Shown here: piece after piece, positions 5,803-35,553 of the stretch
Position numbering within the stretch: position 1 is the stretch's first letter
Layout of the letters: every line of letters starts with the position of its first letter
NCBI GenBank assembly: GCA_934167495.1
Contig: CAKPKP010000006.1
Span: 10,789-74,788 of the forward strand
DNA length: 64,000 bases
Direction: 5' to 3'
From: an uncultured Clostridia bacterium
GTDB lineage: Bacteria; Bacillota; Clostridia; TANB77; CAG-508
The notes under the pieces: model-generated
Databases searched by the model: none
What the model was told of the DNA's origin: nothing
The model's input: the letters and a program-made list of their open reading frames with translations, nothing else
Program-made: the position numbers and the translations under genes

Positions 5803-6492
5803 ATGTCTAAAAAGAAAAAAATAATAGTTATTACAATATTATCTATTTTAGCTTTAATGTTCATAGGATATAATTTATTTTTTAATGAAAACAATGAAGC
5901 TGTTGCTTTATCTAGATATGGCTCAAGAGGTTCAGAAGTAAAAACAATACAAACAAAATTAAAAAGATGGGGATATTATAGTGGTTCTGTAGATGGAATA
6001 TATGGTTCTCAAACCGTTGCAGCTGTTAAGAAATTTCAAAAGAAAAATGGACTTACAGTAGACGGAATAGCAGGTACAAAAACATTAGCTGCTATGGGAA
6101 TAAATAGTTCATCAAATAAAAATACATCATCAGCAAGTAATCAAAACGATATAAACTTACTAAGTAAAGTTATATATTCAGAAGCAAGAGGTGAACCTTA
6201 TAAAGGACAAGTTGCTGTAGGAGCTGTTGTATTAAATAGGGTTGCTAGTTCATCATTTCCAAATACTTTAGCAGGGGTTGTTTATCAATCTGGAGCATTT
6301 GATGCTGTAAGTGATGGTCAAATAAATTTAACTCCAGATGAAACAGCAAGAAAAGCAGCACAAGATGCGATAAATGGCTGGGACCCAACATCAGGATGTA
6401 TATATTATTTCAATCCAGCAACTGCAACATCAAAATGGATTTGGTCAAGACCACAAGTAATTACTATAGGAAAACATATATTTTGTAAATAA
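5803..6492 (+). CDS. SleB/CwlJ-family cell-wall hydrolase with a PG_binding_1 domain
   Basis: Signal/TM segment, then a peptidoglycan-binding repeat (GSQTVAAVKKFQKKNGLTVDGIAGTKT), then the hydrolase_2 core (YSEARGEPYKGQVAVGAVVLNRV). Confidence 0.8.
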   Translation: MSKKKKIIVITILSILALMFIGYNLFFNENNEAVALSRYGSRGSEVKTIQTKLKRWGYYSGSVDGIYGSQTVAAVKKFQKKNGLTVDGIAGTKTLAAMGINSSSNKNTSSASNQNDINLLSKVIYSEARGEPYKGQVAVGAVVLNRVASSSFPNTLAGVVYQSGAFDAVSDGQINLTPDETARKAAQDAINGWDPTSGCIYYFNPATATSKWIWSRPQVITIGKHIFCK

Positions 6493-27991: not shown

Positions 27992-28120
27992 ATATATATT
28001 ACATATTTATCTAATAAGAAATTTTGAGAAGCTTCCTATTAGATGCAAAAGTTTCAAAATAAAAAAAATTTTGAAACTTTTTTTAGATTTAAATTGTGTT
28101 ATAGATATAGGAGGGGAAAG

Positions 28121-28612
28121 ATGTACATATTACCTGAACAAAAAAATAAATATATTGAAGATATGATAAATACATACTCAGATTTAGTTTATAGGTTAGC
28201 AATAACTAGATGTAAAAATAAAGAAAATGCAGAAGATATTTTTCAGGAGGTTTTTCTGATTTTTAATAAAAAACTGCCAACTTTTGAATCAGAAGAACAT
28301 GCGAAGGCATGGTTTATAAGAGTAACTATAAATTGCAGTAAAAATATTATAAACTCATCTTGGAATAGAAAAACCACAGAATTAGATGAAAATATAGAAT
28401 TTGCAACAAAAGAGAATCATGATGTATTTTATGAGGTCTTGAAATTACCAAAGAATTATAAGACAGTAGTATATTTGCATTATTATGAGGGATATAAGAT
28501 TTTTGAAATAAGTAAGCTATTAAATAAAAAAGAATCAACAATAAAAACCTGGATGTTAAGGGCAAGAAAAATTTTAGAGAAAAATTTAAAAGGAGGTTTT
28601 GATGATGAATAG
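28121..28612 (+). CDS. ECF-type sigma-70 family RNA polymerase sigma factor
   Basis: Region 2 (IFQEVFLIFNKK…) and region 4 HTH (…EISKLLNKKESTIKTWMLRARKIL). GGAGGGG lies upstream of the ATG at 28121. Confidence 0.8.
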   Translation: MYILPEQKNKYIEDMINTYSDLVYRLAITRCKNKENAEDIFQEVFLIFNKKLPTFESEEHAKAWFIRVTINCSKNIINSSWNRKTTELDENIEFATKENHDVFYEVLKLPKNYKTVVYLHYYEGYKIFEISKLLNKKESTIKTWMLRARKILEKNLKGGFDDE

Positions 28613-30681: not shown

Positions 30682-32622
<1,941 letters not shown>

Positions 32623-32665
32623 TAAATATTAAAGTATTTGTTTAATAGGAAATTCATATTAGATA

Positions 32666-32698
32666 AAAAACCCCATGGGAATTTCCCATGGGATTTTT
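32666..32698 (+). terminator. groESL rho-independent terminator
   Basis: AAAAA-CCCATGGGAA-T-TTCCCATGGG-ATTTTT, a perfect 10-bp stem. Confidence 0.85.
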
Positions 32699-32756
32699 AG
32701 GCTATATAATATGAAAGTAATGCAACTTTCATATTATATAAAATTATATTTTGGTT

Positions 32757-32876
32757 CTAGCAACAACCATTGTTGTTACCACCGCAACAACAGCATATTA
32801 TGATAAGGAATAATATTATCCATATGCAATCATTACCAAATCCAAATCCGCATCCGCAATTTCTGTTTTCTGGCAT
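32757..32876 (-). CDS. Unannotated 39-aa Cys-rich hydrophobic peptide
   Basis: The reverse complement gives AGGGGGGG-aaatgagaa-ATG. It translates as MPENRNCGCGFGFGNDCIWIILFLIIICCCCGGNNNGCC* with 9 Cys. A hairpin (ATATGAAAG…CTTTCATAT) lies downstream on that strand. Confidence 0.45.
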   Translation of the reverse strand: MPENRNCGCGFGFGNDCIWIILFLIIICCCCGGNNNGCC

Positions 32877-33057
32877 TTCTCATTTCCCCCCTTTAAAAAA
32901 GATTAAGTATTTTTGAATTTCATTAGTATGTTATATACTATTCTAAATTCGAAAAAGTGTTACAATATAAATTTAAAAAACTTTTAATAAAGTTATACAC
33001 AAAAAATATTTTTAATGATATAATACGAAAAAATAGAGAAAAATTTGGAGGATACAA

Positions 33058-35553
33058 ATGGGAAAAATAGTTCTATTAGATGATTTAACAATAAATAAAA
33101 TAGCTGCTGGAGAGGTTATAGAAAGACCTGCTTCTGCTATAAAAGAATTAGTTGAAAACTCAATTGATGCAGGTGCTACTAATATTTCAGTAGAAGTAAA
33201 AAATGGAGGAATTTCATATATAAGAATAACAGATAATGGATGTGGTATTTCAGAAGATGATATGGAAATTTCTTTTGAAAGACATGCGACAAGTAAAATT
33301 AGAAAAGCAGAGGATTTAGATACTGTAAAATCTATGGGATTTAGAGGTGAGGCTTTAGCTAGTATCGCAGCTATTGCAAATGTTGAAATGACATCTAGAA
33401 CAGCTGATTCAGAAGTAGGACATAAAATTGTTGTAGAGGGTGGTAAAGTATTGGAATTTACTGAGGTTGGAGCTCCAATAGGAACTACAATAATTGTTAG
33501 AAATTTATTTTTCAACACACCAGTAAGATACAAATTTTTAAAGAAAGATTATACAGAATCAGGATACATAGAAGATGTTATAACAAGATTAGCTTTAGTT
33601 AATAAAGATGTTGCAATAAAATATATAAATACAGGAAAAACAATTATTCAAACAGCAGGAAATGGAGATTCAAAATCTACTATATATAGTATTTATGGAA
33701 AAGATATTGCAAATGGAATTATAGATATAAATTATGAATATGAAGGAATTAAAGTAACAGGTGTAATAGGAAAACCAGAAATTGCTAGATCAAATAGAAG
33801 TAATCAAATATTTTTTGTTAATAAAAGAAATGTTAGAGATAAAAGCTTAACTGCAGCTGCAGAACAAGCATATAAAGGTATGTTACCAATAGGAAAATTC
33901 GGTTTTATTATTTTAAATTTGGACATGGATGCAACAAAAGTTGATGTTAATGTTCATCCTGCAAAATTGGAAGTAAGATTTGAAGAAGAAAGTAAAGTCT
34001 TTAAAGCTGTTTATAATGCAATAAAAGATGGCTTGTTAAAGAAAGAATTAGTTGCAAATGTTGAAAGACCAATAATATTTCAAAGAGAAAATTTTGAAAA
34101 TAGTATAAAGCCAGAAATAAAAGAAGAAAAAGAAGAATCAAAAGGATTTGCTGGATTATTTAAAAAGATGCACAAAGACCAAAATGAAAGTGATGAAGAC
34201 AAAAACAATACTTTAAAAGAAATTTATGAATTTAGAAATGAATTAAAAAAGATAGGTGTGTCACCAGTTTCTACGGTTCCTGTGTCTACTGTTCCAGTAA
34301 CAGTGCCTACTGAATCTAAAGTAGAAAAAGAAGAAACAAAAATTGATGATATTGAAGTTGATGAAAACTTTATAAAACAAACAAATGAAAAAACAAAAAG
34401 TATTATAGAATCATATTACAATAAGGTTTATAATCTTCAAAAGCCAGTAGAAAAGCCTTCTACAGAAAATCAAGAAAGTGTTACAGAAACAGTAAATACT
34501 GAAATAAAAGAAAACAATGAGAATCAAGTTATAAATGAAAAAATTGAAGAAAAAACAAATGATGTAATAGAAAATAGCAATGAAATTATTGAAAATAGAA
34601 TAGAAAATATAAATAATGAAGTTGTAGAAGAAAAGGTAGAAACTGAAAATATAAATAATGAAATAGAATTTGCTGATAACAGTGAAGAGATGGTAGATAA
34701 TGTTACAGAAAAATTAATGCAAGAAATAAAAGATAGCGATGAAGAAAGGACACAAGTAATAGATACACAAACTGTTAGAAAAGCTTTAGAAGAAATGAAA
34801 AAACCAGAAAATAGTGACAAAAACTTTGATGAAATGTATACAAAAATATTTGGAAAATCACCTGTTCAAGAAACTGTAGAAGAGAAAAAAGATGATGCAC
34901 CAAAATTTGAATTTTCAGCTGATGATGAAAATATAACTGTATTTGAAAATAGCGAAGATTACGCTACAAAACCATTAGAATATAGATTTATAGGTATAGC
35001 ATTTTCTACATATATAATAATTGAAATTAAAGATGAAATGTATATAATAGATCAACATGCTGCACATGAAAGAATAATGTATGAAAAGGTTAAGAAGAAT
35101 TATTTTAGTGATGAAGATAAAGATTCACAAATGCTTTTAATACCAGATGTTATAACTTTATCACATAAAGAGGCAGATATAATTAAGCAAAATATTGGTA
35201 TGTTTGAGAAAGCTGGATTTACAGTAGAAGAGTTTGGAGAGAATACAGTAAAATTAACTGGAGTACCAAATATATGTATAGATTTAAATACAAAACAATT
35301 ATTTTTAGATTTATTAGATGAAATAGATACAGTTGCTGTAACTGCAAGACAAGAAATAGAAGAAAAGTTTTTATCAACAATAGCATGTAAATCAGCTGTT
35401 AAAGCAAAAATGAAATTAACTGAAGAAGAAGTACATAAATTAATGGAAGTATTATTAAAATTACCTAATCCATTTACTTGTCCTCATGGAAGACCAACAG
35501 CTATAAAAATGACAAAAGCTGATTTAGAAAAGAAATTTAGTAGAAGAAAATAA
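33058..35553 (+). CDS. mutL: DNA mismatch repair protein MutL with a long low-complexity linker
   Basis: GHKL ATPase N-terminus (LDDLTINKIAAGEVIERPASAIKELVENSIDAG) and C-terminal dimerisation domain. The linker is E/K/N-rich. Confidence 0.9.
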   Translation: MGKIVLLDDLTINKIAAGEVIERPASAIKELVENSIDAGATNISVEVKNGGISYIRITDNGCGISEDDMEISFERHATSKIRKAEDLDTVKSMGFRGEALASIAAIANVEMTSRTADSEVGHKIVVEGGKVLEFTEVGAPIGTTIIVRNLFFNTPVRYKFLKKDYTESGYIEDVITRLALVNKDVAIKYINTGKTIIQTAGNGDSKSTIYSIYGKDIANGIIDINYEYEGIKVTGVIGKPEIARSNRSNQIFFVNKRNVRDKSLTAAAEQAYKGMLPIGKFGFIILNLDMDATKVDVNVHPAKLEVRFEEESKVFKAVYNAIKDGLLKKELVANVERPIIFQRENFENSIKPEIKEEKEESKGFAGLFKKMHKDQNESDEDKNNTLKEIYEFRNELKKIGVSPVSTVPVSTVPVTVPTESKVEKEETKIDDIEVDENFIKQTNEKTKSIIESYYNKVYNLQKPVEKPSTENQESVTETVNTEIKENNENQVINEKIEEKTNDVIENSNEIIENRIENINNEVVEEKVETENINNEIEFADNSEEMVDNVTEKLMQEIKDSDEERTQVIDTQTVRKALEEMKKPENSDKNFDEMYTKIFGKSPVQETVEEKKDDAPKFEFSADDENITVFENSEDYATKPLEYRFIGIAFSTYIIIEIKDEMYIIDQHAAHERIMYEKVKKNYFSDEDKDSQMLLIPDVITLSHKEADIIKQNIGMFEKAGFTVEEFGENTVKLTGVPNICIDLNTKQLFLDLLDEIDTVAVTARQEIEEKFLSTIACKSAVKAKMKLTEEEVHKLMEVLLKLPNPFTCPHGRPTAIKMTKADLEKKFSRRK

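What the first reader, a model, noticed from the sequence alone, without database searches (positions are those of the whole stretch)
32757..32876. Unannotated 39-aa peptide with 9 cysteines (…CCCCGGNNNGCC) between groEL and mutL
The groEL-mutL gap of about 430 bp contains, on the minus strand, a very strong SD (AGGGGGGG) spaced 9 nt from an ATG. The ORF is MPENRNCGCGFGFGNDCIWIILFLIIICCCCGGNNNGCC* and a hairpin follows it. The composition is a Gly/Cys N-terminal region, a hydrophobic core and a tetra-Cys run with a Cys-rich C-terminus. It is reminiscent of small membrane toxins, metal-binding or lipidated peptides, or RiPP precursor cores. It is too short to appear in the ORF track.
Basis: seen in the sequence. 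Interest (0 to 1): 0.6.

Follow-up and report, generated by a model that had tools for sequence, protein, structure and literature searches.

The report
Unannotated cysteine-rich sporulation mini-protein gene
The 39-codon ORF is a real, strongly conserved gene for a tiny, very cysteine-rich membrane-type protein, found in many uncultured gut Clostridia, missing from the protein-family catalogues searched, and carrying a promoter of the type used late in spore formation.

Summary
Window 32757-32876 (-) encodes MPENRNCGCGFGFGNDCIWIILFLIIICCCCGGNNNGCC, with a strong ribosome-binding site, its own promoter and its own terminator.

It is a genuine gene.
- A profile search found 71 clusters (50% identity) and 174 clusters (90% identity) of relatives. 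One relative occurs in 558 blocks of the metagenome collection.
- Synonymous sites are nearly saturated (pS 0.6-0.9), while non-synonymous change is 0-0.09.
- The gene almost always sits divergently upstream of mutL-miaA.

No Pfam, NCBIfam or PDB entry matches it. Sources that name it call it "hypothetical protein". It has the build of the YjcZ sporulation mini-proteins, but no detectable homology to them.

The main new result is the promoter, GTAACA-N15/16-[C/A]ATAGTAT. It travels with the gene through changing genomic contexts and matches experimentally mapped Clostridioides difficile sigma-K promoters. It is the 2nd-best match among the 128,000 window positions scored with a PWM built from those promoters, and it fits sigma-E poorly.

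No maturase or antitoxin-like partner is conserved nearby, so the RiPP-precursor and toxin readings are unsupported.

Most likely it is a late mother-cell, membrane- or coat-embedded spore envelope mini-protein. That function is inferred, not shown.

The parts
32757..32876 (-). Coding sequence of the 39-aa mini-protein (MPENRNCGCGFGFGNDCIWIILFLIIICCCCGGNNNGCC) plus the TAG stop
   Evidence: ORF list and sequence. Homologues found. Codon-level purifying selection, pS 0.6-0.9 against pN 0-0.09. Predicted single helix at residues 14-31.
32886..32894 (-). Shine-Dalgarno sequence AAAGGGGGG, 9 nt upstream of the ATG
   Evidence: Sequence. Relatives have AAAGGAGG or AAGGGGTG at the same position.
32957..32963 (-). 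Predicted -35 element GTAACAC of a sigma-K-type promoter
   Evidence: Conserved upstream of the first family gene in nearly all loci. Identical to the -35 of mapped C. difficile sigma-K promoters such as cotE, cotA and CD1067 (PMC7438776 Table S6). PWM rank 2 of 128,000 window positions.
32934..32942 (-). Predicted -10 element AATAGTATA. Relatives have CATAGTATA.
   Evidence: The sigma-K PWM scores it 13.8 bits and the sigma-E PWM -0.4 bits. AATA variants also occur in mapped C. difficile sigma-K promoters, including cotE, cotA and CD1891.
32877..32929 (-). Predicted 5' untranslated leader of about 52 nt. The start site is inferred to lie about 5 nt downstream of the -10 element.
   Evidence: Inferred from the distance between the -10 element and the start site in the mapped C. 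difficile promoters. Not measured.
32702..32741 (-). 17-bp AT-only hairpin in the 3' UTR
   Evidence: RNA fold of the predicted transcript, z = -6.5. Not present in relatives.
32665..32698 (.). Bidirectional intrinsic terminator, A5-CCCATGGG-loop-CCCATGGGG-T6, shared with convergent groEL
   Evidence: Terminator scan and RNA fold. Every relative has its own hairpin plus T-run just after the stop codon.

Best explanation
This is a self-contained, single-gene transcription unit: promoter, about 52-nt leader, strong ribosome-binding site, 39 codons, terminator. It encodes a member of an uncatalogued family of mini-proteins of about 35-45 aa found in low-G+C, mostly gut-derived, uncultured Clostridia.

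The protein has three parts:
- a short polar Gly/Cys-rich head (MPENRxCGCGFGFGxD);
- one very hydrophobic helix of about 15-18 residues (C-I/C-W-I-I-I-x-L-I-x-I);
- a run of three or four cysteines at the helix end, followed by a GGN..GCC tail.

The promoter is of the sigma-K type (GTAACA, then 15-16 nt, then C/A-ATAGTAT). The gene is therefore most likely switched on late in the mother cell during endospore formation. The peptide has no signal sequence. I infer that it inserts by its helix into a membrane facing the mother-cell cytoplasm (the outer forespore membrane) or into the hydrophobic coat or exosporium matrix. There its nine thiols could cross-link by disulfides or metal bridges once the spore meets oxidising conditions.

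What is shown: the gene is real, conserved and under purifying selection; the protein's architecture; the promoter's type, its conservation, and the fact that it moves with the gene. What is inferred: actual sigma-K dependence, the location in the spore envelope, and the cross-linking role.
For: The gene is real.
- 71 clusters at 50% identity have E<1e-3, and 174 clusters at 90% identity have E<=0.01.
- Relative P0081 is indexed in 558 blocks of the collection.
- pS is 0.6-0.9 against pN 0-0.09.
- The position divergent from mutL-miaA is conserved in 16 of 18 loci.
- Residues E3, R5, G8, C17, W19, I20, I21, C29-31 and G32 are nearly invariant.

Architecture.
- AlphaFold2 predicts a single helix at residues 14-31.
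- Paralogues lie in tandem in relatives, up to 5 copies in L013.

Promoter.
- AC-N16/17-[C/A]ATAnnAT lies upstream of the first family gene in essentially every locus. This includes distant members in organisms of 32-44% G+C and in unrelated contexts (L002, L013, L029, L036).
- The background rate of this motif is 0.26 per kb, and 0 of 44 control genes in the window have it.
- I built a PWM from 23 experimentally mapped C. difficile sigma-K promoters (PMC7438776 Table S6). It ranks the window site 2nd of 128,000 positions.
- That PWM scores the family promoters 8-17.7 bits in 21 of 24 units (three score lower), against a control median of 5.0 and a control maximum of 10.6.
- On six representative family sites the sigma-E PWM gives only -0.4 to 8.0 bits, where the sigma-K PWM gives 9.5-17.7.
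- In C. difficile, sigma-K and sigma-E promoters share the -10 element but differ at -35: AC for sigma-K and ATA for sigma-E (PMC3789822).

Spore-former background.
- A SleB-type gene lies in the window at 5803-6492.
- SpoVT lies next to the gene in L002.
- Spore photoproduct lyase lies next to it in L027 and L028.

Analogy.
- B. subtilis yjcZ, a mini-protein of the same build, belongs to the sigma-K regulon (PMC517825).
- The sigma-K-dependent cysteine-rich proteins CdeC and CdeM build the C. difficile exosporium (PMC6101409). CD1067, a sigma-K-dependent gene listed as a conserved hypothetical protein, has a GTAACA...CATAGTAT promoter. From my own knowledge, CD1067 is cdeC.
Against: No expression data exist, so sigma-K dependence rests on sequence alone.

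In the window and its nearest relatives the -10 element starts with A instead of C. The AC-to-ATA spacing is 16 nt, one shorter than the C. difficile mode of 17. Both variants occur among mapped C. difficile promoters, but only in a minority.

The same bases can also be read as a mediocre sigma-A promoter (GTAACA-17-TAGTAT).

The organisms are uncultured, so their ability to sporulate is inferred from a few marker genes.

There is no homology to any protein of known location, so the proposed spore-envelope role is an argument by analogy. Sigma-K regulons also contain non-structural genes.
Confidence: 0.55

Rival explanations
1. A vegetatively expressed small membrane protein, transcribed by the housekeeping sigma factor. 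It would use its cysteines to bind a metal or an Fe-S cluster, or to sense redox state, or it would act as an accessory subunit of a larger membrane complex. It would have nothing to do with sporulation.
For: The promoter can be read as GTAACA-17-TAGTAT or TAATAT, which matches TTGACA-17-TATAAT at 4/6 plus 4-5/6 positions. The gene sits among housekeeping genes: groEL, mutL and miaA. Nine thiols in 39 residues would suit metal binding.
Against: The conserved bases are those diagnostic of sigma-K, not sigma-A. The AC at -35 is invariant and there is no TTG. The C/A-A immediately before TAGTAT is conserved, and there is a G at the third position of the hexamer. A PWM trained only on mapped C. 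difficile sigma-K promoters ranks the site 2nd in the window. The generic sigma-70 scan found no promoter for this gene, and its hit count was at the level of shuffled sequence. In L013 the sigma-A reading fails for several copies while AC-N17-CATA holds.
Confidence: 0.2
2. A membrane-active peptide, either a type I toxin or a holin-like factor. It would permeabilise the membrane of the producing cell, for example to help lyse the mother cell and release the spore.
For: It is short with a very hydrophobic single helix. If expression is late in the mother cell, that would coincide with mother-cell lysis. The gene lies antisense to the general direction of transcription in the window.
Against: Type I toxins typically have a sequestered or weak ribosome-binding site, a charged tail and an overlapping antisense RNA, and they are patchily distributed, often on mobile elements (my knowledge of the Fst, TxpA, BsrG and Hok classes). 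Here the ribosome-binding site is strong and exposed. The tail is Gly/Asn/Cys. The + strand promoter-like hits are no more frequent than in shuffled sequence, and I did not test whether any is conserved. The gene holds a fixed chromosomal position under strong purifying selection. Tandem amplification to 2-5 copies is odd for a toxin.
Confidence: 0.1
3. A precursor of a ribosomally made, post-translationally modified peptide (sactipeptide, ranthipeptide or SCIFF-like), modified by an enzyme encoded elsewhere in the genome.
For: It is Cys-rich, short and conserved at both ends. Clostridia encode many radical-SAM maturases (general knowledge).
Against: No maturase, transporter or protease is conserved next to the gene in any context examined. 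There is no match to SCIFF or to any RiPP precursor model in NCBIfam or Pfam. A 15-residue aliphatic core is not a feature of the known Cys-rich RiPP precursors I considered.
Confidence: 0.04
4. A chance ORF in an intergenic spacer. The conserved sequence would be a non-coding RNA or a regulatory region of mutL.
For: The ORF is very short. The region contains strong RNA hairpins.
Against: Substitutions fall overwhelmingly on third codon positions of this frame. The peptide is conserved where the DNA is not. The unit keeps its promoter and terminator when it is not next to mutL (L002, L023, L029, L036). No Rfam family reaches its threshold.
Confidence: 0.01

Closest known systems
YjcZ family sporulation proteins (Pfam PF09680, TIGR01732)
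   Same: Both are 32-50 aa. Both have a Gly-rich variable head, a strongly conserved aliphatic core of about 15 residues ending at Gly, and a Gly-rich tail that often ends in Cys. Both occur as tandem paralogue arrays; B. cereus locus L032 has three in a row. B. subtilis yjcZ belongs to the sigma-K regulon (PMC517825).
   Different: There is no detectable homology. None of 39 family members hits PF09680 or TIGR01732 even at E<=10. hhalign between the two family profiles aligns only 3 columns. The core is WIIIxLIxI-CCCC here and FALLVVLFILLIIVG in YjcZ. This family has 6-10 Cys per peptide, and most YjcZ have 0-3. The retrieved named YjcZ are all from Bacillales, while this family is in uncultured Clostridia.
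Cysteine-rich exosporium morphogenetic proteins CdeC and CdeM of Clostridioides difficile
   Same: Both are Cys-rich, clostridial, and made late in the mother cell under sigma-K. The CD1067 promoter (GTAACA-N16-CATAGTAT) has the same form as the family promoter; from my own knowledge CD1067 is cdeC. CdeC and CdeM are needed to build the outermost spore layer (PMC6101409).
   Different: From my own knowledge, CdeC and CdeM are far larger (hundreds of residues) and have no transmembrane-like core. No sequence relationship was found.
SCIFF and other Cys-rich RiPP precursors (sactipeptides, ranthipeptides)
   Same: They are short, Cys-rich peptides that are widespread in Clostridia.
   Different: Those precursors sit next to their radical-SAM maturase and lack a hydrophobic helix. 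Here no maturase is nearby in any context, and no model matches.
Type I toxins of Firmicutes (Fst, TxpA, BsrG and similar)
   Same: They are single hydrophobic helices of 30-60 aa and are usually left unannotated.
   Different: Those toxins have charged tails, an antisense RNA and a patchy distribution often linked to mobile elements. This gene has a strong ribosome-binding site, no evidence of an antisense promoter, a fixed chromosomal position and strong purifying selection.

Membership tests
YjcZ family (PF09680 / TIGR01732) | Match to the Pfam PF09680 or NCBIfam TIGR01732 model | tested here: not met
   No hit for the window peptide or for any of 39 family members at E<=10. The same pipeline labels true YjcZ proteins with PF09680.
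YjcZ family (PF09680 / TIGR01732) | Profile-profile similarity to an alignment of bona fide YjcZ proteins | tested here: not met
   hhalign of A3 against A4 aligned 3 columns with probability 52%.
YjcZ family (PF09680 / TIGR01732) | Architecture: Gly-rich head, invariant aliphatic core of about 15 residues ending in Gly, total length 30-50 aa | tested here: met
   Alignments A2, A3 and A5 compared with A4. Predicted helix at residues 14-31. The resemblance is in the build only; the residues differ.
YjcZ family (PF09680 / TIGR01732) | Sigma-K-dependent expression in endospore formers | not testable with these tools
   Only the promoter sequence could be examined, and it is sigma-K-like. yjcZ itself is in the sigma-K regulon (PMC517825).
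Clostridial sigma-K regulon (promoter class) | A -35 element containing AC (GTAACA in C. difficile), not the ATA of sigma-E | tested here: met
   GTAACAC lies at 32957-32963 (-) and is conserved across loci. The sigma-K PWM scores the site 13.8 and the sigma-E PWM -0.4. Reference promoters come from PMC7438776 Table S6. The AC/ATA rule comes from PMC3789822.
Clostridial sigma-K regulon (promoter class) | A -10 element CATAnnAT at the right spacing | tested here: met
   The window has AATAGTAT and many relatives have CATAGTAT. The AC-to-ATA spacing is 16 nt in most of the family and 17 nt in L013. The C. difficile mode is 17, with 16 also observed. AATA variants occur in mapped cotE, cotA and CD1891 promoters.
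Clostridial sigma-K regulon (promoter class) | Transcription lost in a sigK mutant, or confined to the late mother cell | not testable with these tools
   The organisms are uncultured and no expression data are held.
RiPP precursor (SCIFF, sactipeptide, ranthipeptide) | Co-location with a cognate maturase (radical SAM or similar), protease or exporter | tested here: not met
   Pfam labels of neighbours in about 10 distinct contexts show none.
RiPP precursor (SCIFF, sactipeptide, ranthipeptide) | Match to a curated precursor model (for example TIGR03973, SCIFF) | tested here: not met
   NCBIfam scans of the peptide and of 39 members gave only spurious weak hits to lipoprotein signal peptidase.
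Type I toxin | Overlapping or adjacent antisense RNA antitoxin with its own promoter | tested here: inconclusive
   Promoter-like matches on the + strand are no more frequent than in shuffled sequence (5 found, 4.7 expected). No Rfam antitoxin RNA was found. Transcription was not measured.
Type I toxin | Patchy distribution, often on mobile elements, and poor conservation | tested here: not met
   The position next to mutL is stable, and pN/pS is far below 1.
Bacterial lipoprotein | N-terminal signal peptide with a positively charged n-region and a lipobox [LVI][ASTVI][GAS]C | tested here: not met
   Read directly from the sequence. The hydrophobic segment begins at residue 17. The head carries one Arg against three acidic residues. 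The residue before C28 is Ile, not Gly, Ala or Ser.

The most novel reading that the evidence does not exclude
These peptides are the founding members of a new class of membrane-anchored 'poly-cysteine' spore envelope mini-proteins. A helix would be buried in the outer forespore membrane or the coat lipid, and the juxtamembrane CCCC block would be reversibly cross-linked by disulfide or metal, or possibly S-acylated. This would give anaerobic gut Clostridia an oxygen-triggered way to lock the spore surface. The family would be abundant in human and animal gut metagenomes and yet invisible to the annotation libraries searched here.
Probability: 0.2. Interest if true: 0.75.

Novelty: new variant of a known kind. 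Interest (0 to 1): 0.5.

Why it matters
Spore formation is how many strictly anaerobic gut commensals pass between hosts. Almost all knowledge of spore surface proteins comes from Bacillus and C. difficile.

This family is very common in gut metagenomes. One variant alone is indexed in 558 blocks of the collection. Yet it has no Pfam or NCBIfam model, no solved structure and no hit in the held literature, and gene callers often miss it or start it too early.

If it is a late mother-cell product, it offers three things:
- a new and very small building block of clostridial spores;
- a sequence marker for sporulation capacity in uncultured lineages;
- a compact natural sigma-K promoter, ribosome-binding site and terminator cassette.

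With 9 of 39 residues being cysteine, next to a membrane helix, its chemistry is unusual for bacteria.

Tried and rejected
- Single-sequence scans of Pfam and NCBIfam found nothing real. The only hit was to a lipoprotein signal peptidase model (E 0.006, 16 bits against a cut-off of 241), which reflects hydrophobic composition only.
I solved this by adding the in-frame upstream codon, or by putting a 41-aa member first in the alignment.
- YjcZ membership was rejected by the HMM scans and by hhalign.
- I tried a B. cereus YjcZ locus as a positive control for the sigma-K motif. No clear motif lies upstream of that array, so the control was uninformative.
- The generic sigma-70 promoter scan gave hits at the level of shuffled sequence and none for this gene.
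- Rfam gave only sub-threshold matches, all caused by the terminator hairpins. The best was His_leader at 34 bits against a threshold of 49.
- The PDB sequence search returned nothing at E<=1.
- PHROGs gave only weak hits to phrog_16490, of unknown function, best E 2.6e-4. I judged these compositional.
- Literature string searches for peptide motifs found nothing relevant.
- No gene with exactly the window peptide's sequence is on record.
- The RiPP and toxin readings were rejected on the grounds given under the rival explanations.
- I did not run a fold search. A single low-confidence helix (mean pLDDT 62) would give meaningless matches.

Full report
**1. The observation**

Window 32757-32876 on the minus strand is an ATG-to-TAG ORF of 39 codons. 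It encodes MPENRNCGCGFGFGNDCIWIILFLIIICCCCGGNNNGCC, which has nine Cys. The sequence AAAGGGGGG lies at 32886-32894 and ends 9 nt before the ATG.

The ORF sits in the 435-bp gap between a + strand ORF at 30985-32622 and mutL at 33058-35553. MutL was confirmed by Pfam as HATPase_c, DNA_mis_repair and MutL_C. The first ORF corresponds to the Cpn60 gene of syntenic relatives.

Two hairpins lie downstream of the stop codon. One is a 17-bp AT-only hairpin at 32702-32741. The other is a G+C-rich stem flanked by A5 and T6 at 32665-32698, which can terminate both this gene and the convergent groEL.

The window has 26.7% G+C. Among all ATG-started ORFs of 20-90 aa in six frames, this one has the most cysteines.

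**2. It is a real gene**

A search with the peptide found close relatives immediately. One in-frame upstream codon was added to reach the 40-residue minimum.
- A profile of five sequences, scored against 1.84 billion cluster representatives, gave 71 proteins with E<1e-3 and 24 with E<1e-10.
- A wider profile found 174 clusters at 90% identity.
- The consensus is MPENRGCGCGFGFGDDCIWIIIVLILICCCCGGNRGGCC.
- Residues E3, R5, G8, C17, W19, I20, I21, C29-31 and G32 are nearly invariant.
- Many database entries are over-extended at the N terminus or run through the stop codon, which shows that gene callers handle this ORF badly.

Among seven loci with 39-codon versions, synonymous differences per synonymous site are 0.6-0.9 between lineages. 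Non-synonymous differences are 0-0.09, and several pairs differ at 2-7 synonymous sites with no amino-acid change. That pattern belongs to the minus-strand frame and rules out a non-coding or + strand explanation.

**3. Genomic setting**

- Eleven loci came from species-representative genomes, all MAGs labelled uncultured Clostridium sp., Clostridia bacterium or Bacillota bacterium. Several are from sheep ileum or duodenum and from rabbit. Five loci came from metagenomes.
- In 16 of these 18 loci the gene lies divergently upstream of mutL, usually followed by miaA.
- The commonest variant, P0081, is indexed in 558 blocks of the assembly collection. It has the same layout as the window: CTP synthase ... 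groES-groEL-(one variable gene)-peptide, then in the opposite direction mutL-miaA-...-SepF-DivIVA.
- Other members sit in different surroundings. L002 lies between TRAM and HIT genes, with SpoVT nearby. L023 lies beside an integrase, with groEL retained. L027 and L028 lie beside spore photoproduct lyase. L029, L033 and L036 have unrelated neighbours.
- Across all these contexts no radical-SAM enzyme, other tailoring enzyme, exporter or protease recurs.

Every copy is followed at once by its own hairpin and T-run. In many relatives a second, related mini-gene lies between the promoter and the MPENR-type gene. An example of this "type A" gene is MRGCNGEILWFIVLILLLCGCCGGNNCGCGCGSDNNCGC. One MAG of 42.7% G+C (L013) has five tandem copies. 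Fused two-repeat ORFs also exist. The window has a single copy.

**4. What the protein looks like**

With a 44-sequence alignment, AlphaFold2 predicts one helix at residues 14-31 with disordered ends. Mean pLDDT is 62, rising to 76 over residues 21-30. The stretch C17-C31 averages about 3.3 on the Kyte-Doolittle scale (my arithmetic), which is as hydrophobic as a transmembrane segment but only 15 residues long. There is no signal peptide and no lipobox. Charges are few: E3, R5, D16, and in most relatives one Arg in the tail.

**5. Comparison with catalogues**

- No Pfam or NCBIfam model matches the window peptide, or any of 39 members, at E<=10.
- There is no PDB sequence match and no Rfam family above threshold.
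- PHROGs gave only weak, probably compositional, hits to one family of unknown function.
- Sources that name the protein call it "hypothetical protein".
- Text searches for peptide motifs found no paper.

The architecture recalled the YjcZ sporulation mini-proteins. I retrieved 74 real PF09680 proteins with a probe built from the family's published core motif, aligned 40 of them and compared the two profiles. hhalign aligned only three columns. The build is the same: a Gly-rich head, a conserved aliphatic core of about 15 residues ending at Gly, a Gly-rich tail that often ends in Cys, and tandem arrays. Homology is not detectable, so I do not file this peptide as a YjcZ.

**6. The promoter (main new result)**

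Alignment of upstream regions shows a block that moves with the gene: GTAACA, then 15-16 nt, then [C/A]ATA(G/A)TAT. It lies 33-80 nt before the start codon of the first family gene in the unit.
- In the window it reads GTAACAC (32957-32963), then N14, then AATAGTATA (32934-32942).
- In the P0081 group it reads GTAACA-N15-CATAGTATA.
- Four of the five L013 copies each have AC-N17-CATAnnATA.
- The very divergent P0072 (L036, 44% G+C) has GTAACA-N16-AATATTATA.
- L002 and L029, in unrelated contexts, also carry it.

The loose pattern occurs 0.26 times per kb in all held DNA. It occurs upstream of none of 44 control genes in the window.

For an independent yardstick I took the experimentally mapped sigma-K and sigma-E promoters of C. 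difficile from Table S6 of PMC7438776. Their sigma-K -35 element is literally GTAACA in cotE, cotA, CD1067, CD1518, CD1891, CD2144 and CD3613. The commonest -10 element is CATAGTAT, with AATA variants in cotE, cotA and CD1891.
- A PWM from 23 of these sigma-K promoters, scanned over both strands of the window, places the peptide's promoter 2nd of 128,000 positions.
- It scores family promoters 8-17.7 bits in 21 of 24 units. The three lowest are 3.7, 5.6 and 8.0. The control median is 5.0 and the control maximum 10.6.
- A PWM from 31 sigma-E promoters gives the six sites tested only -0.4 to 8.0 bits. True sigma-E promoters score a median of 12.5 on their own PWM and 3.5 on the sigma-K PWM.

This agrees with the published rule that the two mother-cell sigma factors share the -10 element but differ at -35, with AC for sigma-K and ATA for sigma-E (PMC3789822). 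It also agrees with the B. subtilis spacing of 14-16 nt between the two blocks (PMC517825).

There are caveats.
- The window clade has A for C at the first -10 position.
- Its spacing is one nucleotide shorter than the C. difficile mode.
- The sequence can also be read as a weak sigma-A promoter.
- Nothing here measures transcription.

**7. Are these spore formers?**

The window encodes a PG_binding_1 plus Hydrolase_2 protein with SleB architecture at 5803-6492. SpoVT and spore photoproduct lyase lie next to family genes in other contigs. This is suggestive but not conclusive. The full genomes could not be fetched.

**8. Most likely mechanism**

What is shown is a conserved, independently transcribed mini-gene with a sigma-K-type promoter. 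It encodes a single hydrophobic helix flanked by thiol-rich segments.

I infer the following steps.
- The gene is transcribed late in the mother cell.
- The peptide has no secretion signal, so it partitions into a membrane facing the mother-cell cytoplasm (the outer forespore membrane) or into the hydrophobic coat or exosporium matrix.
- Its cysteines take part in disulfide or metal cross-links.

The last step is proposed by analogy with the sigma-K-dependent cysteine-rich exosporium proteins CdeC and CdeM of C. difficile (PMC6101409). I give about 0.97 to "real protein-coding gene", about 0.75 to "sigma-K-type promoter" and about 0.45-0.5 to "structural spore-envelope component".

Rivals are:
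- a vegetative membrane, metal or redox mini-protein (0.2);
- a late membrane-active lysis or toxin peptide (0.1);
- a RiPP precursor with a distant maturase (0.04);
- a chance ORF (0.01).

**9. Novelty and verdict**

The gene family is not in the catalogues or the held literature. In kind, however, it resembles things already known: tiny hydrophobic sigma-K-dependent sporulation proteins such as YjcZ, and cysteine-rich spore surface proteins. I rate it a new variant of a known kind and score interest at 0.5. It is a solid, well-supported new small-protein family with an unusual composition and a testable regulatory assignment, but it has no demonstrated function.

Noticed in passing
window 32702-32741: A perfect 17-bp hairpin made only of A and T pairs lies between the peptide's stop codon and the terminator. 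It is absent from the 3' regions of relatives, so its role is unclear. It could be a 3' stabiliser, a remnant or chance.
   Followed up: partly
window 33015-33023 (+): An extended -10 element, TGATATAAT, lies 35 nt upstream of the mutL start codon. It is conserved in relatives, where it appears as 'gaattatatcatta' on the peptide strand. It is probably the mutL sigma-A promoter, back-to-back with the peptide's promoter.
   Followed up: partly
window 33058-35553: MutL is unusually long at 831 aa, and 773-858 aa in relatives. The N-terminal 337 residues and the C-terminal 250 or so residues are conserved. A linker of about 200 residues aligns with no relative.
   Followed up: partly
L003-L008, L012, L014, L015, L018, L026-L028 (about 150-200 nt upstream of the MPENR/MPDK gene): A second, 'type A' paralogue lies between the shared promoter and the main gene, forming a two-gene unit. 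Examples are MRGCNGEILWFIVLILLLCGCCGGNNCGCGCGSDNNCGC and MCNNDNILWFIILFLLLFCGGCGNKNCCDNNFNS. The window lineage lacks it.
   Followed up: partly
L013 4280-5612: Five tandem copies lie in a Bacillota MAG of 42.7% G+C. Four have their own AC-N17-CATAnnATA promoter. Several have a short hairpin in the 5' leader, as do L019-L022 (GCGATTgagaAATCGC). This may be a conserved 5' stabiliser.
   Followed up: partly
L003-L008 (about 30 nt upstream of the second gene): The conserved element actactCATAaagTAgt lies between the two mini-genes. It can be read either as a second sigma-K-like -10 element with no AC at -35, or as a 5-6-bp hairpin. L005 carries an insertion that keeps the stem.
   Followed up: no
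P0011 (78 aa), P0144 (71 aa; L033-L035): Some relatives are single ORFs that contain two complete head-helix-CCCC repeats, which look like fused tandem genes.
   Followed up: no
window 5803-6492: This gene has PG_binding_1 plus Hydrolase_2 domains, the architecture of the spore cortex-lytic enzyme SleB. It hints that the organism forms endospores.
   Followed up: partly
window 28043-28612 and 55764-56288: Two ECF-type sigma factor genes are present. Each is followed by a gene that looks like a membrane anti-sigma factor.
   Followed up: no
window 17752-17782 (+): This is the best match in the window to the C. difficile sigma-K PWM (15.1 bits). It lies inside ORF 17655-19322 and is probably chance, but I did not examine it.
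   Followed up: no
window 32771-32792: The Cys codons (TGT TGT TGC) and Asn codons (AAC AAC) of CCCCGGNNN form an internal inverted repeat, which the terminator scan flagged. It is only partly kept in relatives, so it is probably a by-product of codon choice.
   Followed up: partly
window 32881-32883: An out-of-frame ATG 7 nt upstream of the real start opens a 16-codon ORF that overlaps the start of the gene. It is seen only in the window.
   Followed up: no
L032 1501-1901 (Bacillus cereus group): Three YjcZ-type mini-genes lie in tandem, each with its own GAGGAGG ribosome-binding site. The third copy is not labelled PF09680 in the precomputed annotation, although it clearly belongs to the family.
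   Followed up: no
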